Made by a program: the position numbers and the translations under genes. Under the pieces are notes generated by a model. That model made no database searches. It was not told the DNA's origin and was given only the letters and a program-made list of their open reading frames with translations. A stretch of DNA of 64,000 nucleotides from a candidate division WWE3 bacterium RIFCSPHIGHO2_01_FULL_40_23 (GTDB taxonomy: Bacteria; Patescibacteriota; WWE3; UBA101185; 2-01-FULL-41-18). Positions 2,946 through 40,139 of the stretch are shown piece after piece. Where the stretch lies: the NCBI GenBank assembly GCA_001772615.1, contig MEUZ01000001.1, forward strand, positions 120,623 to 184,622, in the 5' to 3' direction. The number at the start of each line of letters is the position of its first letter. The first letter of the stretch is position 1.

Positions 2946-3020
2946 TGGTGGGCGCGGATGGGATCGAACCATCGACATCCACTTTATAAGAGTGGCGCTC
3001 TTCCACTGAGCTACGCGCCC
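2946..3020 (-). tRNA. tRNA with anticodon UAU (probably tRNA-Ile reading AUA), 75 nt, CCA encoded
   Basis: Manual fold of the minus strand: acceptor GGGCGCG/CGCGCCC, D-arm GCTC-AGTGGAA-GAGC, anticodon stem CCACT/AGTGG with loop CTTATAA (U33, A37), variable loop ATGTC, T-arm GATGG-TTCGATC-CCATC, discriminator A, CCA. Confidence 0.65.
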
Positions 3021-17190: not shown

Positions 17191-17253
17191 AGAATAAGGA
17201 GAGTAAAAGATGTTAGCAGAAGAGAAGGTAACAAAGTAGCTCTCACAGGTGAT

Positions 17254-17472
17254 TTGGACACGGATGTTAAAAAGATCATAGAAGCCCTTGAGAAGGCGGG
17301 TTTTACGGTACACGCCAGAAACACAGCGATGGCTTACCGATTTGAGCTGTATGAAGACGTGGACCACGCAGGAGTTTTCTATTACGACAGAGGGGCAATT
17401 CGATTCTTGGAGGCAGACCAAAGGGAGAAACCCGACTTTAAAGAGAAGGTTCGGGCCGCCCTTTGCGGGTAA
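17254..17472 (+). CDS. hypothetical small protein, GC-enriched
   Basis: ORF followed by a terminator. Confidence 0.35.
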   Translation: MDTDVKKIIEALEKAGFTVHARNTAMAYRFELYEDVDHAGVFYYDRGAIRFLEADQREKPDFKEKVRAALCG

Positions 17473-17480
17473 AGTATTCG

Positions 17481-17519
17481 GGGCAGGTTAGAAACACAAC
17501 CTGCCCGTTTTACCTTTTA
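17481..17519 (+). terminator. rho-independent terminator (gggcagg...cctgccc + GTTTTACCTTTT)
   Basis: Hairpin plus T-tract between the convergent genes 17254..17472 and glyA. Confidence 0.5.
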
Positions 17520-18857
17520 ATCTATCCCGGGGACGGGGAAGCGTTTGCAGAGCTTTTTTATTTCTTCTCTAATCTTAAGAAGGTTTTTATTCTTCGCAAT
17601 ATCTCTTCTGAATTTCTTTAAATACGCGGCTCTTTCATCTTTACCCTCGGGAAGTTTATATTTTTCAGCTTCCCTTATAACCGAAGCCACCCACTTTCCT
17701 ATCTTTTCCATTTCCTTTTCTTTCATTCCCCTTGAAGTTATGGCGGGGGACCCAAGCCTAATCCCAGAAGGATAAAACGGAGAGGAGGGTTCCATGGGAA
17801 TCATATTTTTATTCACAGTAATACCGGAAATACTTAAAGCATCCTGCACAAAAATGCCGCTTCCCACCCCGTTTGTTTGCGTTAAATCAACAAGGAGCAA
17901 GTGGTTATCGGTGCCGCCCCCAACTAACTTCAAACCCTCCTTTTTTAAAGACCTTGCAAGGGCCTTGGCGTTTCTAACAACCTGCTTAGCATATTTTTTA
18001 AATTTCTCGGAAGACGTCTCTTTAAGGCAAACCGCAATGCCCGCGATTACGTGGTTATGAGGACCCCCTTGCAATCCCGGAAATACAGCTTTATCTATTT
18101 TGTCCCCTAGCTCCGGGTCTTTCTTTAATCCTTTTTTGGTTACCATTATCATTGCACCCCTTGGTCCCCTTAAAGTTATATGTGTTGTGGATGTAATAAT
18201 ATGCACAAAGGGAGCCGGGCTTTTATGCGCACCGCCCGCAACAAGACCAGCAACGTGGGCGATGTCAGCGGCAAGATAAGCCCCCACGTCATCCGCTATT
18301 TTTGAAAAAACTTCAAATTCATACTCTTTGGTGTACGCTGAACCTCCAACCCATATGAGCTTTGGCTTGTGTTCGGATACAAGCCTGATAACCTCCGAAA
18401 AATCCACAACACCTTCGGAATTCACATGATACGGAACGCTATGGTAATAAAGGCCGGAAAAGCTTGTTTTCCATCCGTGAGTTAAGTGCCCACCATCATA
18501 AAGGTTCATACCTAAAACTGTATCCCCAGGTTTTAAAACAGCAAGATAAACCGCATGATTTGCAGGGCTTCCTGAATAAGGCTGTACATTAACATAAGGC
18601 ACATTAAACAGCTTTTTGGCTCTTTCCTGCGCCAGCTCTTCTATTTCATCAATAAATTCATTACCGGCGTGATACCTTTTATACGGATAACCCTCCGAAT
18701 ACTTATTAGTTAAAATTGACCCCACCGCATCCAAAACCGCCGCACTCGTATAGTTTTCAGAAGGAATCATCTCAAGCCCCTCTTTCTGTCTTCCAACTTC
18801 TCTCTCCAATGATTTAAACAAAGACAAATCCGCTTTTTTCAGGATTTTATAATTCAT
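17517..18857 (-). CDS. glyA: serine hydroxymethyltransferase
   Basis: SHMT motifs along the whole length, including PLP-lysine TTHKTLRGPRG, YSGSPAN, GGHLTHG. Confidence 0.9.
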   Translation of the reverse strand: MNYKILKKADLSLFKSLEREVGRQKEGLEMIPSENYTSAAVLDAVGSILTNKYSEGYPYKRYHAGNEFIDEIEELAQERAKKLFNVPYVNVQPYSGSPANHAVYLAVLKPGDTVLGMNLYDGGHLTHGWKTSFSGLYYHSVPYHVNSEGVVDFSEVIRLVSEHKPKLIWVGGSAYTKEYEFEVFSKIADDVGAYLAADIAHVAGLVAGGAHKSPAPFVHIITSTTHITLRGPRGAMIMVTKKGLKKDPELGDKIDKAVFPGLQGGPHNHVIAGIAVCLKETSSEKFKKYAKQVVRNAKALARSLKKEGLKLVGGGTDNHLLLVDLTQTNGVGSGIFVQDALSISGITVNKNMIPMEPSSPFYPSGIRLGSPAITSRGMKEKEMEKIGKWVASVIREAEKYKLPEGKDERAAYLKKFRRDIAKNKNLLKIREEIKKLCKRFPVPGID

Positions 18858-19021
18858 AAAGCCCTTTCAGCCATATTTTTATAATCAATCAGATGGGACA
18901 AAATGGGCAGTTAGCCAAAATCATAGTAGATCATATTCAGATGGACTTCAATACATAATCCCATAAAACTATTGCAAAGATACCAGAATGTTGTAAATAA
19001 TACTTACACTCTGCCCAATAT

Positions 19022-19633
19022 ATGCCGGGACTAAATTCAAACAATTCAATAAGAAGAGGAATCTTAAGCTACGATTCAAATTTTAAAGACCGCTGTTTTG
19101 CTAATTATACGGATCTGGAACCGATTATAGGCCATTGCAAAGGCCTTGGTTTAAGGATAGTTCTGACTTCGGGAACATTTGATATGGTTCATATAGGGCA
19201 TGCAAGATACCTTGAGACTGCAAAAAAATTCGGGGACTTTCTGATAGTCGGCGTTGACAGCGATGAAAAAGTGAGAAAAAGAAAAGGGCCTGACAGGCCG
19301 ATAGTTCCCCACACGGAAAGAATGGAAATTTTATCCCACATGAGATATGTAGATGCTGTTGTGCTCAAAGCCATCAACGCTCCAAGATGGGCGCTCATAA
19401 AAATGGCAAAACCTGATGTTTTAATTGCCACTCAAGAAACATACACAAAAGAAGAGCTTATTGAACTTAAAAAATATTGCGGCAAGGTTGTGGTTTTAGA
19501 CCCGATGGCAACCACGTCAACAAGCGCAAAAATAAGAAGGCTTCAAATAAGTATGGCGGGAAGACTTGAGAAAATACTAACCCCTAAACTTTTACAAGCG
19601 ATTGAAGAGTCCCTTGAAGAAGTAAAAAAATGA
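19022..19633 (+). CDS. cytidylyltransferase-like nucleotidyltransferase (TagD/RfaE-domain-II-like)
   Basis: GTFDMVHIGHARYL (HxGH) plus the downstream DSDEKVRKRKGPDRPIVPHTERMEIL pattern. Stop overlaps the next start (ATGA). Confidence 0.55.
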   Translation: MPGLNSNNSIRRGILSYDSNFKDRCFANYTDLEPIIGHCKGLGLRIVLTSGTFDMVHIGHARYLETAKKFGDFLIVGVDSDEKVRKRKGPDRPIVPHTERMEILSHMRYVDAVVLKAINAPRWALIKMAKPDVLIATQETYTKEELIELKKYCGKVVVLDPMATTSTSAKIRRLQISMAGRLEKILTPKLLQAIEESLEEVKK

Positions 19634-20478
19634 AAAAAGTTATAGTAGCTTACATTCCGGTTTTACATGAAGGGTATAGAAGGTTCATTGAAAAACATAA
19701 AGATGCCAAAGTCATTTATATTTTCGGAAAAGATATTATTCTGGAATTTGATCACCTCTCAAAAGAGATTAGGGCACTTGATCCAAAGCTTGTTTTAAAA
19801 TCCCTTGAATCATGGGGCTTAATCTCTAAAGCAAAAATCTTAAAACATAATGATCTTCAAAAACTCAACAACTACAAATACAACATTGTAGTTCCTGACG
19901 AAGATGTGACAAAAGAACTTTCTGAAAAGTACTTAAAGAAAGCTAGTGTTTTCTATGACCCGATATTCCTCCGCTGGGACAAACATAAATCTATGGAGCA
20001 AAAGCCTATTGAAGCCGATCAGAAGATATCCTCGGAAGAATTTGATAAAAACGCAATTAGAGAAACCCTTAAAGCTTCAGAAAGAGCTTCCGACTGGTGG
20101 AGAAGAGTGGGGGCGGCAATAGTTAAAAACAAGAAAATCATTATTATTGCGCACAACAGGCACCTTCCATCACCTCATTCTCCCTATGCAAACGGTGACC
20201 CTAGAAACAATTTCCATAAAGGGGTAAACATAGAATTGTCAACAGCAATTCACGCGGAAGCAGATTTAATCTCCCAAGCCGCCAAGAAGGGAATTCCCTT
20301 AAAGGGAAGCTCTATGTATGTTAGTGTGTTTCCCTGCCCTCCATGTGCAAAACTCGTTGCGCGTTCGGGAATATCAAAATTGTATTATGGAGGAGGGTAT
20401 GGGGTTTTGGATGGCGAGGACATTCTAAAAGCATCCGGGGTAGAAATTATTTATGTGGACTTAATGGCAGAAAAATAA
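19630..20478 (+). CDS. dCMP/cytidine deaminase zinc-binding family with a ~150-aa N-terminal extension of unknown function
   Basis: HAEADLISQA...VFPCPPCAKLV (H-A-E ... PCxxC) in the C-terminal half. Confidence 0.65.
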   Translation: MKKVIVAYIPVLHEGYRRFIEKHKDAKVIYIFGKDIILEFDHLSKEIRALDPKLVLKSLESWGLISKAKILKHNDLQKLNNYKYNIVVPDEDVTKELSEKYLKKASVFYDPIFLRWDKHKSMEQKPIEADQKISSEEFDKNAIRETLKASERASDWWRRVGAAIVKNKKIIIIAHNRHLPSPHSPYANGDPRNNFHKGVNIELSTAIHAEADLISQAAKKGIPLKGSSMYVSVFPCPPCAKLVARSGISKLYYGGGYGVLDGEDILKASGVEIIYVDLMAEK

Positions 20479-20487
20479 GCCGGTTGG

Positions 20488-21444
20488 TTAATTACCTTCC
20501 GGCTTACGAACTGTTCCAACCTTGAACCTCACGGGCTCAAAATCGGGCTTACCCATATCAGGAACCACAAACTGAACGTGTAAGTGCTTCACACTGGCTC
20601 CGGAATATGAGCTCTCTCCAAACCTCAAAAAGAACATCCCTCCGATCACTTTGAAGAAAGCTTCCGCCCAAGTGAGCAGTTCAAACAACTCCACTCCGGC
20701 TTGGGGGTTCATCTCCGAAAGAGTTTCCGCATGGAACTTGTAAATGGCCAGAAGGTGAATACGGGTGTTTGACTTTGGCCATTGGGTTAAGGTGAGAACC
20801 CAGAATTTTCCTTCCCTGATAATCTCCTTGTGATGATACTTGGCAAGGTTTTCAGGGCAGAAAGGGCACACACCTTCAGCCGTAATCCGGCTCATTACAG
20901 CCAGTTGATCGGGTGTCCGCGCGTGGGCAAGATCCACATAGACCTTTTTCCTTTTGTACACTTCAAAGGTGTAATCAAAAGGGTTTTTGGCGTCTTTGGT
21001 ACGCGGATCGGAGCTCACAAGCTCCCATTCAAACTCACTGTATCTAGGGAAGGAGGCATCCCCACCAACTTCAACGTCCACCCTAGTGATATAAAGAAAG
21101 TCCGCTAGAGGGAGAAACATTCTGTACACAAGCTCTCCCCCGATAATAAACACCTCCTTATCCTTCATGTAGCCCGCTTTCAGGAGAGCTTCGTCAATGG
21201 TTAAAGCAGTCTCACACCCATCACATACAGCGGGCCTGCTTACCAGGACCACGTTCTTTCTCCCCGGAAGCGGCCCACCCAGATTGTCTCTTATGGACCT
21301 AAAGGTCTTATGGCCCATGATTACAGGGTGGCCTCCGGTTTTATCGGCGAAGTACTTAAGATCCGCCGGCAAGTTCCAAGGCACCTTTCCATCTTTCCCG
21401 ATCACGCCATTTTTGGAAACGGCCGCAATCAAAGATATGGTCAT
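20488..21444 (-). CDS. folA: dihydrofolate reductase fused to a C-terminal HIT-superfamily (HxHxQ branch, Ap4A phosphorylase/GalT-like) domain
   Basis: N-terminal ~165 aa is DHFR (ISLIAAVSKNGVIGKDGKVPW, GRKNVVLVSR, FIIGGELVY). C-terminal ~150 aa carries CPFC and VKHLHVQFVV. Confidence 0.7.
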   Translation of the reverse strand: MTISLIAAVSKNGVIGKDGKVPWNLPADLKYFADKTGGHPVIMGHKTFRSIRDNLGGPLPGRKNVVLVSRPAVCDGCETALTIDEALLKAGYMKDKEVFIIGGELVYRMFLPLADFLYITRVDVEVGGDASFPRYSEFEWELVSSDPRTKDAKNPFDYTFEVYKRKKVYVDLAHARTPDQLAVMSRITAEGVCPFCPENLAKYHHKEIIREGKFWVLTLTQWPKSNTRIHLLAIYKFHAETLSEMNPQAGVELFELLTWAEAFFKVIGGMFFLRFGESSYSGASVKHLHVQFVVPDMGKPDFEPVRFKVGTVRKPEGN

Positions 21445-21471
21445 ACTCCTTTGCTCCTTTCTTTGCTCTCT

Positions 21472-22392
21472 TCAGATTGCTACCGGAATGCCTTTAATTC
21501 CGGGGTGCGGGTTGTAATCCGACAGAGTGAAGTGCCCCCTTCTGAAAGCAAAGAGATCCGTGATACTTTGATCAAGAACCATCGTAGGAAACGGCCTTGA
21601 CTCCCGCTCAAGCATAGTCTTGACGGCAGGAAGCTGGTCCACAAAAATATGCGCGTCGGAAATGGTGTGAATAAACTCATAAGCTTCCACACCTAAAACC
21701 TGCGCAATCGCCATTAACAACGCGAAGTACTGCACCATGTTAGATGGCACCCCCACCCCCGCGTCACCAGATCTCTGGAACATGTGAAGGGTCAGCTTGC
21801 CATTTAGGATCCTTAGATGAACCCAGCCATGGCACGGAACCACAACCACTTTCTGCTGCCTCCCCGTAACACGGATTGCGTATTGAGGAATCCACGGCGA
21901 GACAAAGTGGGTCCTCAATTGAGGCTGTTCCCTCATCTGCCGCAGAATGTATTCAAACTGATTGAACGATCCACCTTCCGCAGTAGGAAAATTGTGAAAC
22001 GCCGCGCCGTAAGAACCGGGACCAAGATCGCCGGGTTCAAGCCCGCGCTTGGCACACTTTTCAGGAGTGGCCCACTTATCCCACCAGTAGCATCCGTGAG
22101 CTTCAAGTTCCCCTAAAGTTCTGGCTCCGTTAATGAAGGCAAATATCTCCCCGATAGCCTGCTGCCAGATTGTTACGGGCAAGCGTTCCGAAGTTTTCGG
22201 ATCCATGTTTCTCTCTGTGATAACAGGAAATCCGTTGTTCAAACGGAATCTCATTATCCCCGGGGCCATGTAGGTAATGGCATCAATCCCTTGTTGTGAC
22301 TGAACCCGCTCTCCATAGCGAAGAATTCTCCACAGGAGCCTTTTGTACTGACCATCAGGCGTGCGATCTGCTAGAGGTTTCATTCTGCTCAT
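21472..22392 (-). CDS. thyA: thymidylate synthase ThyA
   Basis: VVVVPCHGWVHL...LHMFQRSGDAGVGVPSN...YNPHPGIKGIPVAI aligns with the canonical ThyA active-site and C-terminal motifs. Confidence 0.85.
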   Translation of the reverse strand: MSRMKPLADRTPDGQYKRLLWRILRYGERVQSQQGIDAITYMAPGIMRFRLNNGFPVITERNMDPKTSERLPVTIWQQAIGEIFAFINGARTLGELEAHGCYWWDKWATPEKCAKRGLEPGDLGPGSYGAAFHNFPTAEGGSFNQFEYILRQMREQPQLRTHFVSPWIPQYAIRVTGRQQKVVVVPCHGWVHLRILNGKLTLHMFQRSGDAGVGVPSNMVQYFALLMAIAQVLGVEAYEFIHTISDAHIFVDQLPAVKTMLERESRPFPTMVLDQSITDLFAFRRGHFTLSDYNPHPGIKGIPVAI

Positions 22393-23562: not shown

Positions 23563-23637
23563 TCCGGCGTGGCGAAACGGTATCGCGGCTCCCTGTTAAG
23601 GAGATGATTGTAGGTTCGAATCCTATCGCCGGAGCCA
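23563..23637 (+). tRNA. tRNA-Asn (anticodon GUU), 75 nt, CCA encoded
   Basis: Manual fold: acceptor TCCGGCG/CGCCGGA, D-arm GCGA-AACGGTA-TCGC, anticodon stem GCTCC/GGAGA (one G-A mismatch) with loop CTGTTAA, T-arm GTAGG-TTCGAAT-CCTAT, discriminator G, CCA. Confidence 0.75.
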
Positions 23638-23658
23638 GAAATATAGTAAAATCAGCCC

Positions 23659-24045
23659 ATGAGTCAGGAAGAAATAATAAAATCGTGGAGAGAAAGTGCC
23701 AAAAGAAATTTGGATACAGCCAGAGATTTAATTAAATCAAAGCATTATGATTGGGCACTGTTCCTTGGTGAGCTTGCGCTAGAAAAATCACTGAAAGGAG
23801 CCATCACCAAACTACAGAATGACTCCCCACCTTATACCCACAACCTTGTCAAGCTAGCAGAACTTTCAAGCATAGCATTTACACAACAGGATTTAGAAGA
23901 TCTTGCCCAAATTACTAAATATAATGTCCAGGCAAGATATGATGATATCAAGTATCAGTTATATAAAATGGCAACAAAGGAATATACAGAAGAATGGTTT
24001 ACAAAAATAGAAAGGCTATATTCATGGATAGGAAAACATTATTAA
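23659..24045 (+). CDS. HEPN-domain protein (partner of the downstream MNT; putative toxin-antitoxin pair)
   Basis: All-alpha, with the ALFLGELALEKSLKGAI pattern. Overlaps the next gene by 22 nt. Confidence 0.5.
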   Translation: MSQEEIIKSWRESAKRNLDTARDLIKSKHYDWALFLGELALEKSLKGAITKLQNDSPPYTHNLVKLAELSSIAFTQQDLEDLAQITKYNVQARYDDIKYQLYKMATKEYTEEWFTKIERLYSWIGKHY

Positions 24046-24353
24046 GGGACGAGCCCAAAAATTTAATAAAAACATTGAGAAAGGCGTTTCAAGCTAACGG
24101 TGTGCCCGTTGATAAAATTATAATTTTTGGATCTTATGCAAAAAAAACTAACAGACCTGACAGTGACTTAGACTTATGTGTAGTTTCAAAATCCTTTGGA
24201 AAAGACTCTTTAAAGGAAATGATGGAGCTTACTAAGATATCATCTAGAATTGACCCAATGATTGAAATTCACCCATATAACCCACAGGATCTTAATAATA
24301 AATTTGATCCGTTGGCGAAGGAAATTAGAGAGCATGGGATTTTGGGGTATTAA
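24024..24353 (+). CDS. minimal nucleotidyltransferase (MNT, Pol-beta superfamily)
   Basis: IIIFGSYAKKTNRPDSDLDLCVV (GS-x9-DxD). Start chosen at MDRKTLL. Confidence 0.65.
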   Translation: MDRKTLLRDEPKNLIKTLRKAFQANGVPVDKIIIFGSYAKKTNRPDSDLDLCVVSKSFGKDSLKEMMELTKISSRIDPMIEIHPYNPQDLNNKFDPLAKEIREHGILGY

Positions 24354-24368
24354 ACAGATTGCTGGCAT

Positions 24369-24408
24369 AAGGAGATGGTTGTAGGTTCGAATCCTATCGC
24401 CGGAGCCA
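24369..24408. repeat. 40-nt direct repeat of the 3' end of tRNA-Asn (1 mismatch), att-like
   Basis: aaggagatgGttgtaggttcgaatcctatcgccggagcca versus tRNA positions 23598..23637 (gatgAttg). Overlaps the 3' end of the recombinase gene. Confidence 0.75.
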
Positions 24409-25911
24409 ATTAGACCGTATCCGAACCAAGTTTCGTGATACCAACGCCTCAAACTCTGGTACAAACTCGAAACTGGTTATTGTTCGTTCTTTTTCCAGAA
24501 ACGCCTTTGAAATGAAGAAGCGGAGAAACTGCTTTTGTTGAACCTTGGTCATTGCGTCGTAAAGCTCACCTATATTTTTCATACCCTGGATCACTTTCTC
24601 AATTTCTGAATCTTTGAGGTTAGTTGAGGGCTTATCCATTTCTATTATCTGTGCATCTACTTGTTTTAGTTCTTCCTTCAACGGCTGGTAGCGTGCCTTG
24701 ATTCTTTCCGATTCAACAAGTTCATCTCCACCAAACATTTTATCTTCAAGCACCTTCATCTTTTTATCAAGTATGTCTCTCCTTTGTCTAAGCGTTTTAA
24801 GTTGTTCAGGAACGCTTGTACCTTGCTCCTGTTTTACTTCCAACAGCACATTTCGTAAATTATTTAATGCCTTTTCGGTAAATACCGTGCCATGAAAAAA
24901 TGCGGATACTCTTTTATCTGCTTTCTCCAATGAAACATAGGTTTTCTCACAAGTCTTACATCTAAAATAGTTACCTTTTGGGTGGTACTCGGCAGCCATT
25001 AAACTGCCGCACTTGAGACAATGGGCATACCCAGCTAACAGGGTGGTATATTTTCTTGTGCGGTTTGCACCTTTGTTTCTTTTTTCAAACATAAGTAGAG
25101 ATTTCTTATACCAATCAACTGGCACAATTGGTTCGTGAGCCGCCTTTTCATATATTACCCCGTCATAAGACAGCCCGCCACAATAGAGTATGTTTTTAAG
25201 GATGTTGGTCATTGTATTTTTATTGACCTTACCACCAGAAGTATTTCTCAGACCCTGCTCGTATAAAATGTTTGTTATTGAGTAGACGGTGTGGTTTCCA
25301 GAAATCCACATTTCATAAGCCTTGTAAATAAAATGTTTCCTTTCTGGGTCAGGGTAAATCGGTTTGTCCTTTTGAAATGAGTTACAAAATCCGAGTGGAC
25401 TTTTTCCTGGTTTCATCCCTTTTTCTGCAAGTGCCTTCATGATCCTTTTCGTTTTTTTACCAGTACGCCTCGATTCCAATTGGTTGACCGCCGCAACAAT
25501 TACATCAAGGAAGTCGCCCTCGTCTGTGTCGCCATAATAAGAACCATCTAATGGAATTAGTTTTATGTTTCTTTTTTTCAGGAACGCCTTAACTGTCAGA
25601 TGATCCGCAACATTTCTTGCCAGTCTGCTTGAGTCTTGAACCAGTACGAGATCAACCGTGGCAGCATTGTCATCACAGTAATCCAGCAGTTCTTCCATAT
25701 CAGGTCTGTCCAGGTCTCTCGCACTTCGCCCCGAATCTTCAAATACTTTCAAAATGGTTATGTTGTTTTGACTCACAAAGTTTTGAAAAAGTTGGTCTTG
25801 CACTTCCAAGCTATGTCCTGTAAGAGCCTGGTTTGGTGTTGAAACTCGTTTGTAGCACACAGATTTTAACATTGTGCCTGTCTTTGGTTTTATATCTTCT
25901 AATCCGTACAT
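24394..25911 (-). CDS. large serine recombinase (resolvase/invertase N-domain + recombinase domain + zinc ribbon)
   Basis: Catalytic motif YKRVSTPNQ near the N-terminus, a C-terminal CLKCGS...CKTC zinc ribbon and a coiled-coil tail. True start may be the internal MLKSV. Confidence 0.8.
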   Translation of the reverse strand: MYGLEDIKPKTGTMLKSVCYKRVSTPNQALTGHSLEVQDQLFQNFVSQNNITILKVFEDSGRSARDLDRPDMEELLDYCDDNAATVDLVLVQDSSRLARNVADHLTVKAFLKKRNIKLIPLDGSYYGDTDEGDFLDVIVAAVNQLESRRTGKKTKRIMKALAEKGMKPGKSPLGFCNSFQKDKPIYPDPERKHFIYKAYEMWISGNHTVYSITNILYEQGLRNTSGGKVNKNTMTNILKNILYCGGLSYDGVIYEKAAHEPIVPVDWYKKSLLMFEKRNKGANRTRKYTTLLAGYAHCLKCGSLMAAEYHPKGNYFRCKTCEKTYVSLEKADKRVSAFFHGTVFTEKALNNLRNVLLEVKQEQGTSVPEQLKTLRQRRDILDKKMKVLEDKMFGGDELVESERIKARYQPLKEELKQVDAQIIEMDKPSTNLKDSEIEKVIQGMKNIGELYDAMTKVQQKQFLRFFISKAFLEKERTITSFEFVPEFEALVSRNLVRIRSNWLRR

Positions 25912-25934
25912 ATTTCAAAATAAGGCAGAAATAA

Positions 25935-26819
25935 TTACTTTCCTATTCGTTCTTTTAACATCCTCCTAACAATACCAGTTAGATAAGCAGCGTGGTTACC
26001 GACATACTTCCCGTTTGCTACATCTTCCTTGTACTCACCATACGCCTTCTCCAAAGCCCAAAACTGCTCATTTCTTATAAGGCTAAGGTAGTTATCCATA
26101 CATTGTTCGTGAACTGCTTCGGCAATCTCCTTCGCTTTAAGTTCGCTGTATAAGCTTGGGCGGAATAGTCTTGTTGGGTTCTTACAAACATATTCGGCAT
26201 CGGACTTTTCTTCGCTCTCGTTTCCTACTTTATTAGAAACCGATAAGGTGTTTTCAATCTTCTTTTCAATATCGGTATGGTTATTATAACCTCTGAACTC
26301 CTTTGAATCATTAACACCCTGTTTAATTGCTACACCAGCACTATCCAACATCTCCAACTTCTGATTTTTAACTTCAACCTCTGTACTATCCTCTGACTTT
26401 TTGTCGCCTACAGTACCAACTTCCTGCTGACTTGCCTCCTTGATAAACAAGTGCTCGATGCTGGTTATTTTCTTGTTAGGATCAATAAAATCTGGAAAAT
26501 GAACCTCAAACGAACCTGACCTCCCAGTTCTATCCATATAAAACAATAACCTCTTACTTTTTAAGGACAAAAGTATTTTATTAACATAGTTTTTTGAAAC
26601 TGATTTCTTACCGCCTTCTTTTCCGAAAACATCATCTCTTATAGCCTCCATGTGAGTTGTGCAAATACCATAAGGATTGCATTGTATACGCAGGTAACAA
26701 TATACGAAAAACTCTGCTCGGTTTATTTCACCGTTTTTGTATAAACTGGCAATGTTTCTTGGAAACACTATCCAGTTTGATAATGGGTTTTCAGTTTGAT
26801 TTTCTTGTTCTTTTTTCAT
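25935..26819 (-). CDS. hypothetical island protein (N-terminal winged-helix-like region; possible replication/regulatory role)
   Basis: ORF only. Co-oriented with the recombinase. Confidence 0.35.
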   Translation of the reverse strand: MKKEQENQTENPLSNWIVFPRNIASLYKNGEINRAEFFVYCYLRIQCNPYGICTTHMEAIRDDVFGKEGGKKSVSKNYVNKILLSLKSKRLLFYMDRTGRSGSFEVHFPDFIDPNKKITSIEHLFIKEASQQEVGTVGDKKSEDSTEVEVKNQKLEMLDSAGVAIKQGVNDSKEFRGYNNHTDIEKKIENTLSVSNKVGNESEEKSDAEYVCKNPTRLFRPSLYSELKAKEIAEAVHEQCMDNYLSLIRNEQFWALEKAYGEYKEDVANGKYVGNHAAYLTGIVRRMLKERIGK

Positions 26820-26954
26820 CTTTTCTCCTTACATCTTTCTTGTCTTCATGCAGCGACATCAGAAAACAAGCCAATTGCCGCAGATATTCCAACATTGCTT
26901 TTTCATCAACCTCAACTTCGTGAACTTTTTTTAGTTGTGCAGTTAAATCCGCTT

Positions 26955-27218
26955 TCATACCTGCTCAGCGTTTATTCGCCCTTTCAAAAACTTGATGTTT
27001 GAAAAGTATTCCGAAGCCTCGACAAATAGGTCTTTCCTCCAAAACTTATCGGCAAGCTCCCGCACCTGGTCAGAATCCTCGAACAGGAAAACTGCCTTTT
27101 GTGGATTGACTGGGGATTTTTCTATACCTATTAACGGATGAAAGCACACAACTGCTGCTGCAAGTGCGATGTCATTTATTGTGAAGGGTTTTTGCTCATA
27201 AATCTTTTCTGGTCTCAT
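26955..27218 (-). CDS. hypothetical small protein
   Basis: ORF only. Confidence 0.3.
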   Translation of the reverse strand: MRPEKIYEQKPFTINDIALAAAVVCFHPLIGIEKSPVNPQKAVFLFEDSDQVRELADKFWRKDLFVEASEYFSNIKFLKGRINAEQV

Positions 27219-27365
27219 GGATTTATTGTAGAGAGACCTTGTTGTACAAAATGTGCGGAGTGTTTGAGAGTGTTCTTGATGAAAATGAGTTAGTGTTTAT
27301 AAAGGGGGAATAACAAAATTATGGTTGCAGTCAAACAGATCAAAAATGGTCAAGGAAAAGGCACT

Positions 27366-28439
27366 CTAAACAAAGGTAGCTTTTACTGTATTTCTTTTTT
27401 CATCGACAACAATGGCTAATCTACCTTTGAGTTTATTTCCTTTTTGCAGTTCCTTGTTGGCGTATTCGATTACCGACAGCATTGTTGTTGGGTTGCTTGC
27501 GGATTTTGATTTTTGTAGGTCTTTTTTATTTGCGATTACCTCAAAGACAGATGGGGTTGTTCTTTCTGCACCTAAAGCGTCAAAAGTAAAAGCAAGTAAC
27601 TTCCAATGTTTTGATGAAGCCTTTCCTATTTTGACTGGTTTGCTGCTTCCGTACTGCAAATAGCCGCATCCTTGTTTTTCAAATAACTTAGGTTTTCCCA
27701 GATAGGTGGACTTGGTTGTACCAAATACCCTTTTGAGTGTTGCAACATCGGTTACTTTTACATTTACAAAACAATGATCTGCGGGAAAGAACTCTATCTC
27801 CTCACCAATCGGTATGTTTCTTTCAAAATCCATTTCTTTTGCAGGTAACGGAAGTTTTCTAAAATCAAAAGCTATTTCCAGCAACTGTATCTTTTTCTCC
27901 TGTTCTAAGGCTCGTAGAACGGTCAGGAACGGGGCTTTCGTATCTGGGCTATCTTCTCTCCTCAGCTTTTGTGCCAACCCTGGATTGTCAAAATAAGTAC
28001 CTAAAATCTTTTCCGTTACCACAAACTCGTTACTGTGTTCTTTTTTTGTAATCTCGAATATAGTCTGAAACATACTTTTTTTGAGTCTTTCAAGTGCGTA
28101 AGAATCTACAGCTTCAAGGTCGTGAAGTTTTTCTGCGTATTTTTGCAGATTTTTCCAATCAATTTTTGCTGAGTACGAAGGCAATACTGCTTTGTTGATC
28201 TTCCTGAAACTTTTGAAAACCTTATTATTTCTCAGTTCGGTCAATGTTTCTTCGTTCTTAAATCCACATAATGAAACATCTTTTTTAACGAACTCGTCGT
28301 CGTTTGTGTTCCTCACATATACAAGTTTTCTTGTAGAATCTTTTGTGCCTTTGGAAAATAAATCCAGCAACTGCATTACAAGACTTACCTGATCATATAT
28401 TTTAATTTCTTCCCACAAAGGGGACACATCTAATCTCAT
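27366..28439 (-). CDS. hypothetical 357-aa island protein, no recognisable motif
   Basis: ORF only. Confidence 0.4.
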   Translation of the reverse strand: MRLDVSPLWEEIKIYDQVSLVMQLLDLFSKGTKDSTRKLVYVRNTNDDEFVKKDVSLCGFKNEETLTELRNNKVFKSFRKINKAVLPSYSAKIDWKNLQKYAEKLHDLEAVDSYALERLKKSMFQTIFEITKKEHSNEFVVTEKILGTYFDNPGLAQKLRREDSPDTKAPFLTVLRALEQEKKIQLLEIAFDFRKLPLPAKEMDFERNIPIGEEIEFFPADHCFVNVKVTDVATLKRVFGTTKSTYLGKPKLFEKQGCGYLQYGSSKPVKIGKASSKHWKLLAFTFDALGAERTTPSVFEVIANKKDLQKSKSASNPTTMLSVIEYANKELQKGNKLKGRLAIVVDEKRNTVKATFV

Positions 28440-28560
28440 ATAATCTAATATGCTGATTTTATCACCTACAGCCTGATCGTTCCTGGAAAATCCTTTTCAC
28501 AAGCGAGAACACCCCAGCTCGATTGCTGGGACTCCCAATGTCCAGAAGGCTACCGCAAAT

Positions 28561-28980
28561 TTACTTTATCTTGTTGTATCGAAACTTGACTTCAATACCT
28601 GACCTCGATGGTTCTGGTTTATCCGCCTCAGTAAAATAGTTTTTCAGCTTAAAAATAAACTCTAATGCTTTTAACTGGCTGTTGTGATCTGGTACTGCAA
28701 CCTGCTCTTTTGTTACTGGGTTGCGAATATACTTAACAGCGTCTAATGCTTCTTTGAGTTTCTCAAATAGCACATAATCAGGTAAATCCAACCTTTCATC
28801 ATAATTGTGCAGATGCAGAAGTATTGAGGGTTTTCTTATGTTTTGGCTTCCTATAACCGATGCTATGTGCCTGTCCTTAACATCCTTATATGCGATCAAT
28901 GCTGCTTCCGTTAAAGAACCAGTCTCAATATATTTTTCAACAAAGATACGCTGAGAAACCGTTAAACGCCTATTCATCAT
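28561..28980 (-). CDS. terminase small subunit-like HTH protein
   Basis: N-terminus LTVSQRIFVEKYIETGSLTEAALIAYKDVKDRHIASVIGSQNIRKPSI matches the characteristic TerS N-terminal HTH pattern (LTxKQxxFxxEY...TxAAxxAGYS). Confidence 0.5.
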   Translation of the reverse strand: MMNRRLTVSQRIFVEKYIETGSLTEAALIAYKDVKDRHIASVIGSQNIRKPSILLHLHNYDERLDLPDYVLFEKLKEALDAVKYIRNPVTKEQVAVPDHNSQLKALEFIFKLKNYFTEADKPEPSRSGIEVKFRYNKIK

Positions 28981-29211
28981 AAGAACAGCCTACAAAATCC
29001 AAGTAAGTTTGTAAAATAGTAAAGCAAAGTAAAGTAAACCTAATAAGCCATATCGAAATGACAACTGTTGGTTGCTGATGTATTATGCACCTATCCAAAA
29101 AACAAAAGATACAAACATTATCAGTCTTTGACACTATAGGGTATGTAATGATATAATGTTGTTATAATCGTTTGAAATCTATCCCACAATCCCAGATAAG
29201 GAGAACAAAAA

Positions 29212-29826
29212 ATGAGCAACAACTGTGGTCGTTGCGGTGCTGACCTTAGTCGTGGCGAGGTCACCATCTACGAAATCAAGGACAACGAATATGTCCCCAA
29301 GGAAGTTATCTGCCACAAATGTGCTGAAAACGACAGGCTGCTGTACTTCCAGAAGACTGGAACGCTGAATATCCGACTCATTACCTCGGCATTGCTTCAA
29401 CGGATGGACGAAGTTCGTGGACACACTGTTCCCAATCATGTGTTCGCCGTCCCCACCACCGAGAAACGGAAGATACTGCGTGCCAGGAAGGACATTGACA
29501 AGGCGGTCAAGGACTTTGAGCGGACTGTCTGGTTCGGTGGTCTTCAAGAGTACATCCAGAAAGCTGAATGGAAAGGTCATAGTGCAAACGCCTACGGCGT
29601 CAAGGTCATGGCGTATGCGATGGCTGGGCGTGTCATGATTACGATGGAAAAAGGAAATGCTACCGTCACCGTGATCACCGCCGAAGATGAAAAGCGTTCC
29701 GTGATGGGTCTTCAAAGCGTTGACGCCACTCTGTTCCAGGCTGTTCAATTGCTCAAGGAAGCTGCCCGCAACTACCAACACAAACGCTTGAAGTTCCAGC
29801 CCGATCAGCAAGTAAGCATCCTCTAA
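29212..29826 (+). CDS. zinc-ribbon (CxxC...CxxC) protein of unknown function; ~50% GC, a compositional outlier
   Basis: Strong SD (aaggagaacaaaaaATG). N-terminal CGRCGA...CHKC. The long antisense ORF 29179..29859 is attributed to the high GC content. Confidence 0.5.
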   Translation: MSNNCGRCGADLSRGEVTIYEIKDNEYVPKEVICHKCAENDRLLYFQKTGTLNIRLITSALLQRMDEVRGHTVPNHVFAVPTTEKRKILRARKDIDKAVKDFERTVWFGGLQEYIQKAEWKGHSANAYGVKVMAYAMAGRVMITMEKGNATVTVITAEDEKRSVMGLQSVDATLFQAVQLLKEAARNYQHKRLKFQPDQQVSIL

Positions 29827-29924
29827 CTGGTTAGCCGACATAGAATCGTTGGAAACCAAAGAACCGCCGTAAGGAAGTGTGAAAAAGATTTACTCACACA
29901 TCCCCAAGGCGGTTTTTGTTTGCC

Positions 29925-30242
29925 CTATTTACCTACATAATTTATAAAAAGATGGATACTCCACAAAGCCCAGGTTGCTATAACAACCACATCTATAAGA
30001 TTGCTTGCTGCTTTCAACTGTTGTTTATCGAATCCGTAATCCTTTATTTGAGAATCGAGGTAACCTCTTACCAACCATACTGTAATGTAAAAAACAACGG
30101 AAATTACCGCCATATTGTTAAACAAGTATGAAACTATTATTAAAGGAAGACCGATTATTTGAATCACATTAGGAACTTCCCTGTAAAAGAAATCCCAAAT
30201 ACCCAGTTCTTTATGAACATTATTCATATTCGGATTATACAA
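29925..30242 (-). CDS. hypothetical small 2-TM membrane protein
   Basis: Hydropathy only. Confidence 0.35.
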   Translation of the reverse strand: MYNPNMNNVHKELGIWDFFYREVPNVIQIIGLPLIIVSYLFNNMAVISVVFYITVWLVRGYLDSQIKDYGFDKQQLKAASNLIDVVVIATWALWSIHLFINYVGK

Positions 30243-30367
30243 TGTTCGGTTTTTAGGCGAATACTGGTATTAAACTTCGTATAAATACAACAATGGGGAG
30301 CCAGTAGAGCTATAGCTTTTTTATCCATTTGTTCAAATTTAATAATTAATATATCTTTGAAGAGGAG

Positions 30368-30769
30368 GTGCCAATGAAGACAATCGCATTAGCAATCGTA
30401 AAGAACCTCAAGGAAGAGGTTTTGATTATCAAGAGGAGAAAGGTAGAGAAAGGCTCTGGGGATGCAAAACTAACATATGCGTTTCCTGGTGGTACCGTCG
30501 AAGATGAAGAGAAAACCACAGCAACTGCTGTAAGGGAAGCTAAGGAAGAAACAGGCTATACAGTAATCGCAAGAAATATAATCTCTGAGCGCAACCACCC
30601 CCAATTCCCTGTTCGAGTTGTTTATGTGGTATGCCAACTGTCCTCAGAAGATCACTCACAGCCCGATGATGAAGAAGTGGTTGAGGTTCTTTGGGTAGCA
30701 GTCCTTAAGCTTTCGGAGTACTTCACTACAGATCTGGATCCCAAAGTCGCTTATTACCTTGGGATATAA
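30368..30769 (+). CDS. Nudix hydrolase
   Basis: Nudix box GGTVEDEEKTTATAVREAKEETGY (Gx5Ex7REUxEExGU). Followed by a 10-bp perfect hairpin at 30777..30803. Confidence 0.75.
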   Translation: MPMKTIALAIVKNLKEEVLIIKRRKVEKGSGDAKLTYAFPGGTVEDEEKTTATAVREAKEETGYTVIARNIISERNHPQFPVRVVYVVCQLSSEDHSQPDDEEVVEVLWVAVLKLSEYFTTDLDPKVAYYLGI

Positions 30770-30973: not shown

Positions 30974-31558
30974 ATGAAAACTCAAAACAAAATAGCACTA
31001 AAGGAGTTGTCACCAGAACAACGTGAAGAACTACTTAGAGTATTGAAAGCCCGTTTTGAGAAAAACATGAACCGCCACAAAGGTCTTGCATGGGCTAACA
31101 TACAAACAAAACTGGATCCGCCAGCTGGCGGAGAAAAACTGTGGTCACTCAATGAAATGGAGAAAACTTACGGTGAACCGGATGTTGTAGGTCTTAATAA
31201 AAAGACAGGCGAATACATTTTTTACGATTGTTCAGCGGAAAGTCCTAAAGGCCGCAGAAATGTTTGTTACGACCGTGAAGCGCTGGAGGCAAGAAAAGAA
31301 TTTAAACCAAAAGATAACACTATTGATATGGCAGTTGCCATGGGCATTGAGCTTTTAACTGAAGAACAATATAAAGAGTTGCAGAAACTTGGAAATTTCG
31401 ATACGAAAACGTCAAGTTGGATAAAAACACCTTCTGATATTAGAAACTTAGGCGGCGCCCTCTTTGCTGATCGCCGCTACGACAATGTCTTCGTGTATCA
31501 CAACGGTGCGGAATCTTACTATGCCGCTAGAGGGTTCCGTGGCTCGCTAAGGGTCTAA
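30974..31558 (+). CDS. hypothetical protein
   Basis: ORF only. Confidence 0.35.
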   Translation: MKTQNKIALKELSPEQREELLRVLKARFEKNMNRHKGLAWANIQTKLDPPAGGEKLWSLNEMEKTYGEPDVVGLNKKTGEYIFYDCSAESPKGRRNVCYDREALEARKEFKPKDNTIDMAVAMGIELLTEEQYKELQKLGNFDTKTSSWIKTPSDIRNLGGALFADRRYDNVFVYHNGAESYYAARGFRGSLRV

Positions 31559-39941: not shown

Positions 39942-40139
39942 ATGTATAACTGGTCAACTGACCTAGAAAAGTTGAAGAATTATCCGGAGCAGTACAAAAT
40001 CTGGAAGTTAGAGCAGCTTATAAATTTCGGACTGGGCGGGGAGAAGCTTAGCAGAAAAAGTGTAGAAGAAAATCTGCACAAACTGCATATAGATCAAAAG
40101 AAAAGGGACTATTTTAAATTCCTGTTAGATATACAATGA
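39942..40139 (+). CDS. small protein translationally coupled to AbiEii (putative minimal AbiEi-like antitoxin)
   Basis: ATGA overlap with the downstream gene. 65 aa. Confidence 0.3.
   Translation: MYNWSTDLEKLKNYPEQYKIWKLEQLINFGLGGEKLSRKSVEENLHKLHIDQKKRDYFKFLLDIQ

What the first reader, a model, noticed from the sequence alone, without database searches (positions are those of the whole stretch)
23563..30300. Putative integrated phage-satellite-like island at tRNA-Asn: tRNA, HEPN/MNT, 40-nt tRNA 3'-end direct repeat, large serine recombinase, ORFans and a TerS-like gene
A complete tRNA-Asn(GUU) at 23563-23637 is followed 730 bp downstream by a 40-nt copy of its 3' end (one mismatch). That is the classic signature of site-specific integration into a tRNA gene. 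Immediately beyond the repeat lie a large serine recombinase gene, three co-oriented ORFans (294, 87 and 357 aa) and a protein whose N-terminus matches the terminase small-subunit HTH. The content resembles phage-inducible chromosomal islands (integrase, replication/regulatory genes and a terS used to hijack helper-phage packaging) more than a full prophage, since no capsid, portal or large-terminase genes are present. If the host is a reduced-genome bacterium, a PICI-like satellite would be a noteworthy find. The far boundary is unresolved, as no third repeat was seen.
Basis: partly seen in the sequence, partly recalled or inferred. Interest (0 to 1): 0.8.

Follow-up and report, generated by a model that had tools for sequence, protein, structure and literature searches.

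The report
Serine-recombinase island at tRNA-Asn end
A 5.9-kb mobile island in a tiny-genome groundwater bacterium (candidate division WWE3) inserts at the last seven bases of the tRNA-Asn gene using a large serine recombinase. It carries a phage DNA-packaging gene but no other phage parts, so it may be a phage hitch-hiker of a kind not yet described in these bacteria.

Summary
tRNA-Asn(GTT) lies at 23563-23637. A 41-nt copy of its 3' end, with one mismatch, lies at 24368-24408. The listed genes are present.

The repeat pair brackets only the 731-bp HEPN/MNT toxin-antitoxin cassette, not the recombinase island.

Comparison with nine related loci resolves the island's ends.
- The island spans about 24409-30296.
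- It is bounded by a 7-nt core, GGAGCCA, the last 7 nt of the tRNA. The copies are at 24402-24408 and 30297-30303.
- A conserved arm sits inside each end. One arm lies within the recombinase's own 3' coding end.

The host is candidate division WWE3. Relatives carry 4-11 kb elements at the same tRNA-Asn site, often in tandem. They share the backbone TerS, variable gene, DUF5659, small protein, winged-helix protein and recombinase. Their cargo differs: an aminoacyl-tRNA synthetase, a restriction-modification system, a toxin-antitoxin pair or an arsenic-related set.

The 139-aa protein is a genuine small-terminase homologue. Its closest viral relatives sit directly upstream of large terminases.

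A phage-satellite lifestyle is plausible but only inferred. I found no replication gene, empty site or circular form. I rate this a new variant of a known kind.

The parts
23563..23637 (+). Intact tRNA-Asn(GTT). Its 3' terminal GGAGCCA (23631-23637) is the family's recombination core, and 23597-23637 is repeat copy 1.
   Evidence: ARAGORN; Rfam RF00005 63.2 bits; repeat D1
23659..24045 (+). HEPN-domain protein (128 aa), the putative toxin of a HEPN/MNT pair. It lies between the two 41-nt repeats.
   Evidence: Pfam PF05168 E 1.7e-22
23994..24353 (+). MNT nucleotidyltransferase (119 aa; an internal ATG at 24024 is also possible), MntA-like antitoxin.
   Evidence: Pfam NTP_transf_2 and Polbeta. 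NCBIfam MntA_antitoxin E 2.6e-10, 40.1 bits, below the 60-bit cut-off
24368..24408 (+). Repeat copy 2: a 41-nt tRNA-Asn 3' fragment with one mismatch, starting at anticodon-loop position T36. It serves as the B arm of attL.
24402..24408 (+). attL core GGAGCCA, the left boundary of the recombinase element. Homology to the L021 and L028 copies of the element stops here.
   Evidence: blastn; junction table
24394..25911 (-). Large serine recombinase (505 aa). The catalytic Ser24 motif YKRVST and four zinc-ribbon cysteines are invariant across 16 family members. The last 4 codons and the stop lie in the tRNA-derived repeat, and invariant W502 is encoded by TGG, the complement of the tRNA CCA. The P' arm of attP lies in its 3' coding end (about 24409-24455).
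   Evidence: Pfam; PHROG 95 integrase E 8e-76; alignment A1
25935..26819 (-). 294-aa protein: an N-terminal winged-helix DNA-binding domain, a disordered linker (about 140-200) and a C-terminal helical domain. It sits immediately upstream of the recombinase, and relatives detectable by sequence (48-80% identity) occupy that position in the closer elements. More divergent elements carry a 204-248-aa protein there with no detectable similarity to it. Proposed regulator or directionality factor (inferred).
26791..26958 (-). 55-aa protein overlapping the start of the 294-aa gene. An EYLRQLA-FL motif recurs in other elements. Function unknown.
   Evidence: tblastn; phmmer
26955..27218 (-). DUF5659 protein (87 aa), a backbone gene of the family, under purifying selection (dN/dS 0.05).
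   Evidence: Pfam PF18903 E 7e-9; also in L021b, L028-E2, L031 and L053
27366..28439 (-). 357-aa near-ORFan in the variable 'X' slot of the backbone, under purifying selection (dN/dS 0.13). Function unknown.
   Evidence: only 4 homologues in 5.8 billion proteins; no Pfam, PHROG, NCBIfam or PADLOC match
28561..28980 (-). Small terminase subunit homologue (139 aa): a four-helix DNA-binding domain plus two long helices.
24402..29035 (-). Conserved backbone shared at about 77% nucleotide identity with elements in two other loci (L021 and L028). L028 lies inside a tandem array in WWE3 UBA1397.
   Evidence: blastn
29128..29157 (+). Consensus sigma-70-type promoter (12 of 12, TG-extended) in front of the cargo gene.
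29212..29826 (+). Cargo gene, 204 aa, with a CxxC...CxxC motif and an AAGGAG ribosome-binding site. An antisense 226-aa ORF (29179-29859) is probably spurious. This region is replaced by a class-I aminoacyl-tRNA synthetase in L028 and L021.
29925..30242 (-). Cargo gene, a small membrane protein of 100-105 aa.
30243..30296 (+). P arm of the element's attachment site. It is conserved at 81-94% identity with the distal ends of elements in L024, L025, L028 and L033.
   Evidence: blastn E 2e-13
30297..30303 (+). attR core GGAGCCA, the right boundary of the element. Host flank follows (NUDIX 30374-30769, DUF4256 30974-31558).
   Evidence: the DUF4256 flank is syntenic with L033

Best explanation
Two separate insertions sit at the 3' end of tRNA-Asn(GTT) in a candidate division WWE3 (CPR) bacterium.

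**(1) The recombinase element.**
- It is a 5.9-kb integrative element, about 24409-30296.
- It is moved by its own large serine recombinase.
- The recombinase joins an attP site to an attB site. attP is P arm, GGAGCCA, P' arm, with the P' arm inside the recombinase's 3' coding end. attB is the last bases of tRNA-Asn plus downstream DNA.
- The crossover lies within GGAGCCA, so the tRNA stays intact and only 7 nt are duplicated.
- The recombinase reading frame then runs into the tRNA gene, which supplies its last codons and stop.
- The element has a fixed backbone: TerS, variable gene, DUF5659, small protein, winged-helix protein, recombinase.
- It also has an exchangeable cargo bay next to the P arm.
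- New elements insert on the tRNA side of resident ones, which builds tandem arrays.
- The backbone carries a small terminase but no large terminase, capsid, portal or lysis genes. The most likely means of spread is therefore packaging by a helper phage, in the manner of a satellite or PICI.

**(2) The HEPN/MNT cassette.** This 731-bp cassette with its 41-nt repeat is an independent event with its crossover in the anticodon loop. It pushed attL 771 bp away from the working tRNA.

**Shown:** the boundaries, the att architecture, the family, the tRNA-Asn targeting, the cargo turnover and the TerS homology.

**Inferred:** the crossover position, current activity, helper-phage packaging and the roles of the 294-, 55-, 87- and 357-aa proteins.
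For: **Boundaries.**
- Window 24402-29035 aligns at 77% identity with L021 and L028, and the alignment stops at TGGCTCC.
- Window 30243-30303 matches the distal ends of elements in L024, L025, L028 and L033 at 81-94% identity. Each of those ends abuts the same core.
- A degenerate attL/attR pattern hits only these two places in the window.

**tRNA-Asn targeting.**
- The recombinase 3' end overlaps a complete tRNA-Asn(GTT) in L024, L025/L029, L026, L030, L031 and L034.
- It runs into a tRNA cut off by the contig end in L027 and L032.
- Eleven of 15 homologues end in WL[PR]..DSN, which is the reverse-strand translation of a tRNA acceptor and T arm. W502, encoded opposite the CCA, is invariant.

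**attP shape.** The reconstructed attP has dyad symmetry around the core: TTCGTATAA / TTATACGAA and GGTAT..AAACTT / AAGTTT..ATACC.

**Mobility and cargo.**
- Cargo differs between elements. It is a class-I aminoacyl-tRNA synthetase in L028 and L021 and Eco47II restriction-modification plus SocA in L024. It is HxlR, DUF2703 and ArsP in L025, and a Ser/Thr kinase in the decayed L033.
- Tandem arrays occur in DBQJ01000021, L021 and L052.

**Backbone.**
- It recurs in diverged versions: L021b, L030, L031 and L053.
- It is under purifying selection, dN/dS 0.05-0.14.

**TerS.** In six of seven viral contigs tested, the TerS relative is followed by a protein with a large-terminase Pfam domain.

**No structural genes.** No capsid, portal, TerL or lysis match was found in the element.
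Against: - No empty attB site and no circular attP junction was found.
  - All 19-23 contigs carrying these genes show the same integrated arrangement.
  - The predicted excised-form recombinase (517 aa) is absent from a 15-billion-protein collection.
  - The junction scans of metagenome contigs are uninformative, because that collection lacks even the integrated junctions.
- No replication gene (primase, Rep or helicase) and no AlpA or Stl-type regulator was detected.
- Some family members (L024, L025) lack both TerS and DUF5659, so TerS is not universal.
- No helper phage has been identified, and no relative of the recombinase or the 357-aa protein occurs in IMG/VR.
- Foldseek against PDB gave no TerS hit for the whole model.
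- The origin of the 41-nt repeat around HEPN/MNT remains unexplained in mechanistic detail.
Confidence: 0.5

Rival explanations
1. The element, boundaries and serine-recombinase mechanism are the same, but it is not a phage satellite. It would be a cargo-carrying integrative island, like the cargo-type tycheposons. It would spread by transformation, vesicles or generalised transduction. The TerS-like protein would be co-opted as a DNA-binding regulator or directionality factor.
For: - Cargo is diverse and adaptive or defensive: an aminoacyl-tRNA synthetase, restriction-modification, a toxin-antitoxin pair and arsenic-related genes.
- Some members lack TerS altogether yet are integrated at the same site.
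- No replication or capsid-redirection genes were found.
- All contigs show the integrated state.
- Pfam and PHROG profile matches cover only the N-terminal helix-turn-helix.
Against: - The homology to SF6 TerS runs through the oligomerisation helices: KALEFIFKLKNYF against KALELLGKAHAVF.
- The model has the domain order of a small terminase, a DNA-binding domain followed by two long helices.
- The closest viral relatives are positional small terminases.
- The gene is first in the backbone operon in at least five diverged elements and is under purifying selection.
- Elements that lack it still integrate, so it is not needed for integration.
Confidence: 0.33
2. The region is the decayed remnant of a temperate phage that used a serine integrase. 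Only the integrase end and a stray terS gene survive.
For: - The recombinase matches the phage integrase family PHROG 95.
- terS is a phage gene.
- At least one family member (L033) is clearly decayed.
Against: - The same compact six-gene order recurs in lineages whose proteins share only 25-50% identity. Both att ends are intact and dN/dS is 0.05-0.14.
- None of about ten elements (4-11 kb) carries TerL, portal, capsid, tail or lysis genes.
- In real phages the relatives of this TerS sit directly before TerL, which is never the case here.
Confidence: 0.07
3. One reading: the 40-nt tRNA repeat is the attachment repeat of the recombinase island, and HEPN/MNT belongs to that island.
For: The repeat is real and highly significant. 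The recombinase gene starts right after it.
Against: - Only HEPN/MNT lies between the repeat copies.
- Homology to other copies of the element begins at the last 7 nt of repeat copy 2 and excludes HEPN/MNT.
- In six other loci the recombinase abuts a complete tRNA-Asn, with no long repeat within 10 kb.
- From general knowledge, serine recombinases need only a short shared core.
Confidence: 0.03

Closest known systems
Tycheposons of Prochlorococcus (Hackl et al., bioRxiv 10.1101/2020.12.28.424599)
   Same: - Small site-specific integrative elements in a streamlined genome, targeting tRNA genes.
- A modular backbone plus exchangeable cargo.
- Both cargo-carrying and PICI-like (terS or MCP) types.
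- A minority (27 of 937) use a large serine recombinase.
   Different: - The host phylum differs (CPR/WWE3).
- Here a serine recombinase is the rule, with a 7-nt core at the extreme 3' end of tRNA-Asn and attP inside the recombinase gene.
- No primase, helicase or polymerase replication module was detected.
- The backbone genes (DUF5659, the 294-aa winged-helix family) are unrelated.
Phage-inducible chromosomal islands (PICIs / SaPIs)
   Same: - Integrated at a specific site.
- No structural or lysis genes.
- Carries its own small terminase, which in SaPIs redirects helper packaging.
- Accessory or defence cargo near one end.
   Different: - A serine, not a tyrosine, integrase.
- 5.9 kb, against a usual 10-15 kb.
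- No pri-rep, Stl/Str, AlpA, Ppi or Cpm homologues found.
- Induction by a helper is untested.
PLEs of Vibrio cholerae
   Same: A phage satellite that integrates with a large serine recombinase (general knowledge; preprint title and abstract listed).
   Different: - PLEs are about 18 kb and integrate in superintegron repeats, not a tRNA.
- The gene content is unrelated.
PICMIs of Vibrionaceae (PMC10803314)
   Same: - A minimalist satellite of about 6 kb.
- A small gene adjacent to or overlapping int is needed for excision (iolg). This is analogous in position to the 55-aa and 294-aa genes here.
   Different: - PICMIs are defined by int, alpA, a primase and integration next to fis.
- They lack terS.
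- None of those markers is present here.
Classical large serine integrases (phiC31, Bxb1, A118, TP901-1)
   Same: - The same domain set: resolvase, recombinase, zinc ribbon and coiled coil.
- att sites with dyad symmetry that share only a short core.
- attP adjacent to int.
   Different: - To my knowledge those enzymes target protein-coding genes or intergenic sites.
- Here the target is the 3' end of a tRNA gene, which is kept intact.
- Here the int reading frame crosses the crossover point.

Membership tests
Large serine recombinase (serine integrase) | N-terminal resolvase catalytic domain with a nucleophilic serine | tested here: met
   PF00239 E 6.5e-27; the YKRVST motif with S24 is invariant in 16 sequences
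Large serine recombinase (serine integrase) | Recombinase domain, zinc ribbon and coiled-coil C-terminal region | tested here: met
   PF07508 E 6.7e-8; weak Zn_ribbon_recom match with four invariant cysteines (C298, C301, C318, C321); PHROG 95 integrase E 8e-76 over residues 9-481
Large serine recombinase (serine integrase) | att sites with dyad symmetry sharing only a short central core | tested here: met
   attL and attR share GGAGCCA (7-11 nt in relatives); the reconstructed attP has inverted arms. The crossover dinucleotide was not determined.
Terminase small subunit, Pfam Terminase_2 | Scores above the family's curated cut-off | tested here: met
   39.2 bits against 26.1, but only profile positions 1-45 of 141
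Terminase small subunit, Pfam Terminase_2 | DNA-binding domain followed by a helical oligomerisation core, homologous to a solved TerS | tested here: met
Terminase small subunit, Pfam Terminase_2 | Encoded next to a large terminase and acts in packaging | tested here: not met
   There is no TerL in the element or the window region. Viral relatives do precede TerL. Function is not testable here.
PICI | Site-specific integrase (tyrosine type in described PICIs) | tested here: not met
   An integrase is present but is a serine recombinase
PICI | Replication module (primase/Rep plus ori) | tested here: not met
   No match in Pfam, PHROGs or NCBIfam for any element protein. The 357-aa protein remains unassigned.
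PICI | Regulator pair (Stl/Str) or AlpA | tested here: not met
   No AlpA or Stl match. The 294-aa winged-helix protein could be a regulator, but this is inference only.
PICI | Packaging-redirection gene (terS, ppi or rpp) with no structural or lysis genes | tested here: met
   A TerS homologue is present; no capsid, portal, TerL, tail or lysis hits
PICI | Induced, replicated and packaged by a helper phage | not testable with these tools
   No read data or experiments. No excised form was found in assemblies.
PICMI | int, alpA, a DUF3987/DUF5906 primase and integration next to fis | tested here: not met
   Definition from PMC10803314. None of alpA, the primase or fis is present.
Tycheposon | tRNA-targeted site-specific integrase, cargo at the distal end, tandem islands | tested here: met
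   description
Tycheposon | Homologous integration and replication modules (one gene-sharing cluster; mostly tyrosine recombinase plus primase or helicase) | tested here: not met
   A serine recombinase is used and no replication genes were detected. Direct sequence comparison with tycheposon genes was not done.
HEPN/MNT (HepT-MntA type VII) toxin-antitoxin | Adjacent HEPN and minimal nucleotidyltransferase genes | tested here: met
   PF05168 and PF01909/PF18765 in overlapping genes. NCBIfam MntA_antitoxin scores 40.1 bits, below the 60-bit cut-off.
HEPN/MNT (HepT-MntA type VII) toxin-antitoxin | RNase motif Rx4-6H in HEPN and toxin or antitoxin activity | not tested

The most novel reading that the evidence does not exclude
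These elements would be the first phage satellites recognised in Candidate Phyla Radiation bacteria. They would form a WWE3-wide family with these properties.
- They use a serine recombinase whose attP lies inside its own gene.
- Integration at the tRNA-Asn CCA end therefore swaps the enzyme's C-terminal tail. The free form would end in PIVVFIRSLIPVFA. The integrated form ends in tRNA-encoded residues.
- This swap could act as a built-in switch of recombinase state, comparable to integration-dependent immunity in mycobacteriophages.
- They stack in tandem at one tRNA.
- They serve as a main vehicle for moving cargo (aminoacyl-tRNA synthetases, restriction-modification, toxin-antitoxin pairs) between reduced genomes that have no known conjugation machinery.
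Probability: 0.25. Interest if true: 0.8.

Novelty: new variant of a known kind. Interest (0 to 1): 0.62.

Why it matters
How the tiny genomes of CPR (Patescibacteria) bacteria exchange genes is poorly understood. They have few recognised plasmids, conjugative systems or satellites. In the searchable literature, 'phage satellite' and 'Patescibacteria' co-occur in only two papers, neither of them on this subject.

This locus and its relatives define a compact element family with exact ends. That gives three testable leads.
- A serine integrase with a natural, gene-sparing target at the 3' end of tRNA-Asn. This could be useful as a CPR genetic tool and as an unusual integrase specificity.
- A route by which cargo such as aminoacyl-tRNA synthetases, restriction systems and toxin-antitoxin pairs turns over at a single hotspot.
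- A candidate satellite-helper system in an uncultured phylum.

It also offers a caution for annotation. A long tRNA repeat next to an integrase need not be that integrase's attachment site.

Tried and rejected
- **Third copy of the long repeat.** None exists in the window.
- **Empty site or alternative contexts in the same population.** Exact look-ups of the recombinase, NUDIX, EamA and HEPN proteins returned only the integrated arrangement.
- **EamA flank in genome contigs.** No relatives found.
- **Predicted empty attB junction, and a degenerate attB/attP/attL/attR pattern, in metagenome contigs.**
  - Both gave 0 hits.
  - The pattern does match the window.
  - That collection therefore lacks this organism, and the negatives carry no weight.
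- **Recombinase, recombinase-family alignment and 357-aa protein in IMG/VR.** No relatives.
- **Predicted excised-form recombinase.**
  - It is absent from the 15-billion-protein collection.
- **Foldseek of the TerS model against PDB.** Nothing meaningful.
- **The 357-aa 'X' proteins of different elements.** No detectable mutual homology.
- **PADLOC and NCBIfam on all element proteins.** Nothing beyond the recombinase and MNT.
- **DUF5659 in viral contigs.** The alignment was too divergent to search.
- **Far flanks of L024 against L028.** They are not syntenic, so no occupied-versus-empty comparison was possible.
- **P0007 and P0014 contigs as possible free circles.** Both are integrated or tandem contexts.
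- **HEPN/MNT as part of the recombinase element.** Considered and rejected.
- **The 226-aa antisense ORF.** Considered and judged unlikely. The 204-aa + strand gene has a consensus promoter and a ribosome-binding site.

Full report
**1. Observation**

ARAGORN and Rfam both find a complete tRNA-Asn(GTT) at 23563-23637 on the + strand. Its last 41 nt (23597-23637) recur at 24368-24408 with one mismatch. A 28-nt core of the repeat occurs exactly twice in the window, against zero in 100 shuffles.

- HEPN, 23659-24045.
- MNT, 23994-24353.
- A 505-aa large serine recombinase, 24394-25911 (-).
- 294-aa, 87-aa and 357-aa ORFs on the minus strand.
- A 139-aa protein, 28561-28980 (-), that passes the Pfam Terminase_2 cut-off.

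Some corrections are needed.
- The 87-aa protein is DUF5659.
- The 294-aa protein belongs to a family with 224 representatives at 50% identity.
- A 55-aa gene at 26791-26958 is also called.
- The recombinase stop codon (24394-24396) lies inside the second repeat copy, so its last four codons are tRNA-derived sequence read on the opposite strand.

**2. The long repeat does not bound the recombinase island**

Only HEPN/MNT lies between the two copies. No third long copy exists anywhere in the window.

Exact-protein look-ups show that this organism was assembled many times from Rifle groundwater samples, always with the same arrangement. NCBI names the recombinase as a protein of a candidate division WWE3 bacterium.

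**3. Relatives resolve the element**

Homologues of the recombinase at 36-76% identity occur in WWE3 and other CPR-labelled genomes.
- In L024/L034, L025/L029, L026, L030 and L031 the recombinase 3' end overlaps a complete tRNA-Asn(GTT) on the opposite strand.
- In L027 and L032 the contig ends inside that tRNA.
- In an alignment of 16 family members the C-terminus ..VRIxSNWL is conserved.
- W502 is invariant and is encoded by TGG, the complement of the tRNA's CCA.
- Eleven of 15 homologues continue with WL[PR]..DSN.., the reverse-strand reading of a tRNA acceptor stem and T arm.

Nucleotide comparison gives precise ends.
- Window 24402-29035 aligns at 77% identity with L021 6313-1673 and with L028 11506-6911. 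L028 is from WWE3 UBA1397.
- The alignment stops at TGGCTCC, the complement of GGAGCCA, which is the last 7 nt of repeat copy 2.
- Window 30243-30303 matches a 47-61-nt sequence at the far end of the elements in L024, L025, L028 and L033, at 81-94% identity (best E 2e-13).
- That sequence again ends in the same core, at window 30297-30303.

Every complete locus therefore reads the same way.
- On the recombinase side: recombinase end (P' arm), then TGGCTCC, then tRNA-Asn.
- On the far side: host flank, then TGGCTCC, then CCATTGTTGTATTTATMCGAAGTTTRATACC (P arm).

Element sizes run from 4.0 to 11.1 kb. The window's element is about 24409-30296, or 5.9 kb. Beyond it, DUF4256 is syntenic with the flank in WWE3 RIFOXYD1_FULL_39_9.

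The reconstructed attP (P arm, core, P' arm) has the dyad symmetry expected of a serine-integrase site. The symmetry centre falls inside GGAGCCA, at about G71-A72 of the tRNA. This crossover position is an inference.

**4. Evidence of mobility and architecture**

- The same backbone occurs in three loci: the window, L021 and L028.
- Between backbone and P arm the window has a 204-aa zinc-ribbon-like protein and a small membrane protein. L028 and L021 have a 618-aa class-I aminoacyl-tRNA synthetase there instead.
- Other elements at the same tRNA carry Eco47II restriction-modification plus SocA/Panacea (L024) or HxlR, DUF2703 and ArsP (L025). One carries a Ser/Thr kinase inside a decayed copy whose recombinase is reduced to 139 aa (L033).
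- Contig DBQJ01000021 holds three recombinase elements in tandem. L021 and L052 are also arrays. In these, a P' arm of one element abuts the core and the P arm of the next.
- The order TerS-like, variable X, DUF5659, small protein, winged-helix protein, recombinase recurs in versions with only 25-50% protein identity: L021b, L030, L031 and L053.
- TerS, the 357-aa protein and DUF5659 are under purifying selection, dN/dS 0.05-0.14.

These results contradict both an ancestral, immobile region and a random prophage remnant.

**5. The individual proteins**

*The 139-aa protein.*
- Its best solved relative is the small terminase G1P of phage SF6 (3zqp, E 0.0023). The alignment covers residues 4-124 and includes the oligomerisation helix motif.
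- The AlphaFold model (pLDDT 76) has a four-helix DNA-binding domain followed by two long helices.
- Foldseek on the whole model was uninformative.
- Seventeen relatives were found in IMG/VR.
- In six of seven viral contigs tested, the gene immediately downstream has a large-terminase Pfam domain. Those viral proteins show the same partial Pfam match.
- I conclude that it is a genuine small-terminase homologue, encoded here without a large terminase.

*The 294-aa protein.* It has a confident winged-helix N-domain, a disordered linker and a helical C-domain. It has no Pfam or PDB sequence match.

*The 357-aa protein.* It is nearly an ORFan, with 4 homologues. The proteins in its slot in other elements are not detectably related to it.

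*Replication, regulation and structure.* No replication, AlpA, Stl, capsid, portal or lysis function was detected in any library.

**6. HEPN/MNT**

- The 41-nt repeat starts at T36 of the anticodon loop. From general knowledge of tRNA-targeting tyrosine integrases (Williams 2002, not readable here), that is the classical crossover position.
- No such integrase is present.
- L033 has an analogous 18-nt tRNA 3' repeat separated by 113 nt.
- L052 has a recombinase-less insert between the tRNA and a recombinase element.

I interpret HEPN/MNT as a separate, later or earlier, tRNA-proximal insertion. Repeat copy 2 still provides an intact B arm for attL. The mechanism of that insertion is unresolved.

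**7. Comparison with known systems**

- The closest concept is the tycheposon family of Prochlorococcus. These are tRNA-targeted elements in a streamlined genome, with cargo-carrying and PICI-like (terS) types and a minority using serine recombinases.
- PICIs share the small terminase without structural genes. They differ in integrase type, size and the presence of replication and regulatory modules.
- PLEs share the serine recombinase only.
- PICMIs share the small size but are defined by int, alpA, a primase and fis, and they lack terS.
- I found no paper describing satellites in Patescibacteria or serine integrases aimed at tRNA-Asn.

**8. Limits**

- No empty site, circular junction or helper phage was found.
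- The two metagenome junction scans are void, because the collection lacks this organism.
- The satellite lifestyle is therefore an inference from gene content.

**9. Verdict**

- The element belongs to a previously unannotated family of serine-recombinase elements at the 3' end of tRNA-Asn in CPR bacteria. I class it as a new variant of a known kind.

Noticed in passing
window 2946-3020 (-); L024 19359-19434; L025 17955-18030: A tRNA-Ile with anticodon TAT (UAU) lies next to the suf operon. This anticodon is unusual for bacteria. The order tRNA-Ile(TAT), suf, ... tRNA-Asn is shared between the window's host and WWE3 genomes.
   Followed up: partly
window 16252-22392: A thymidylate/folate cluster (FolD, SHMT, dCMP deaminase, a 318-aa DHFR, ThyA) has GC of 0.49-0.50 over the DHFR/ThyA part (about 20.5-22.5 kb), against about 0.40 around it. 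The rest of the cluster is near background. The high-GC part may have been acquired horizontally. The DHFR is about twice the usual length.
   Followed up: no
window 29128-29157 and 29179-29859: A perfect TTGACA-18-TATAAT promoter with a TG extension precedes the 204-aa + strand gene. Public gene calls often annotate the overlapping antisense 226-aa ORF instead. Two assemblies break inside this GC-richer stretch.
   Followed up: partly
L028 5053-6909; L021 10-1671: A 618-aa class-I aminoacyl-tRNA synthetase (tRNA-synt_1 plus Anticodon_1) is carried as cargo on elements with the same backbone as the window's.
   Followed up: partly
L033 10406-10554: An 18-nt duplicate of the tRNA-Asn 3' end sits 113 nt from the intact tRNA, next to a decayed element whose recombinase is reduced to its last 139 aa and which contains a Ser/Thr kinase.
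   Followed up: partly
L052 2709-12066: A 9.3-kb insert without a serine recombinase (SDR, Mrr, DUF3800, HTH_17, N6_N4 methyltransferase) lies between tRNA-Asn and a recombinase element. It shares only the TGGCTCC core, so other element types may use the same hotspot.
   Followed up: no
window 24347-24356 and 30263-30272: The 10-mer GGTATTAAAC occurs both at the MNT stop codon and in the P arm. The spacing to the core differs (45 nt against 24 nt), so this may be coincidence.
   Followed up: no
window 25935-26819 (about residues 140-200): Several independent assemblies break inside the disordered-linker region of the 294-aa gene (L003, L005, L006, L007). This suggests strain-level length or sequence variation there.
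   Followed up: no
window 40136-40798; 36584-37741: An AbiEii toxin-like gene and a Peptidase_C39/TPR protein lie downstream of the island, in host DNA.
   Followed up: no
L024 242-2895: A second core plus P-arm-like sequence lies 2.65 kb beyond the element end. It encloses a radical-SAM gene and two small ORFs, and may be a recombinase-less remnant in tandem.
   Followed up: no
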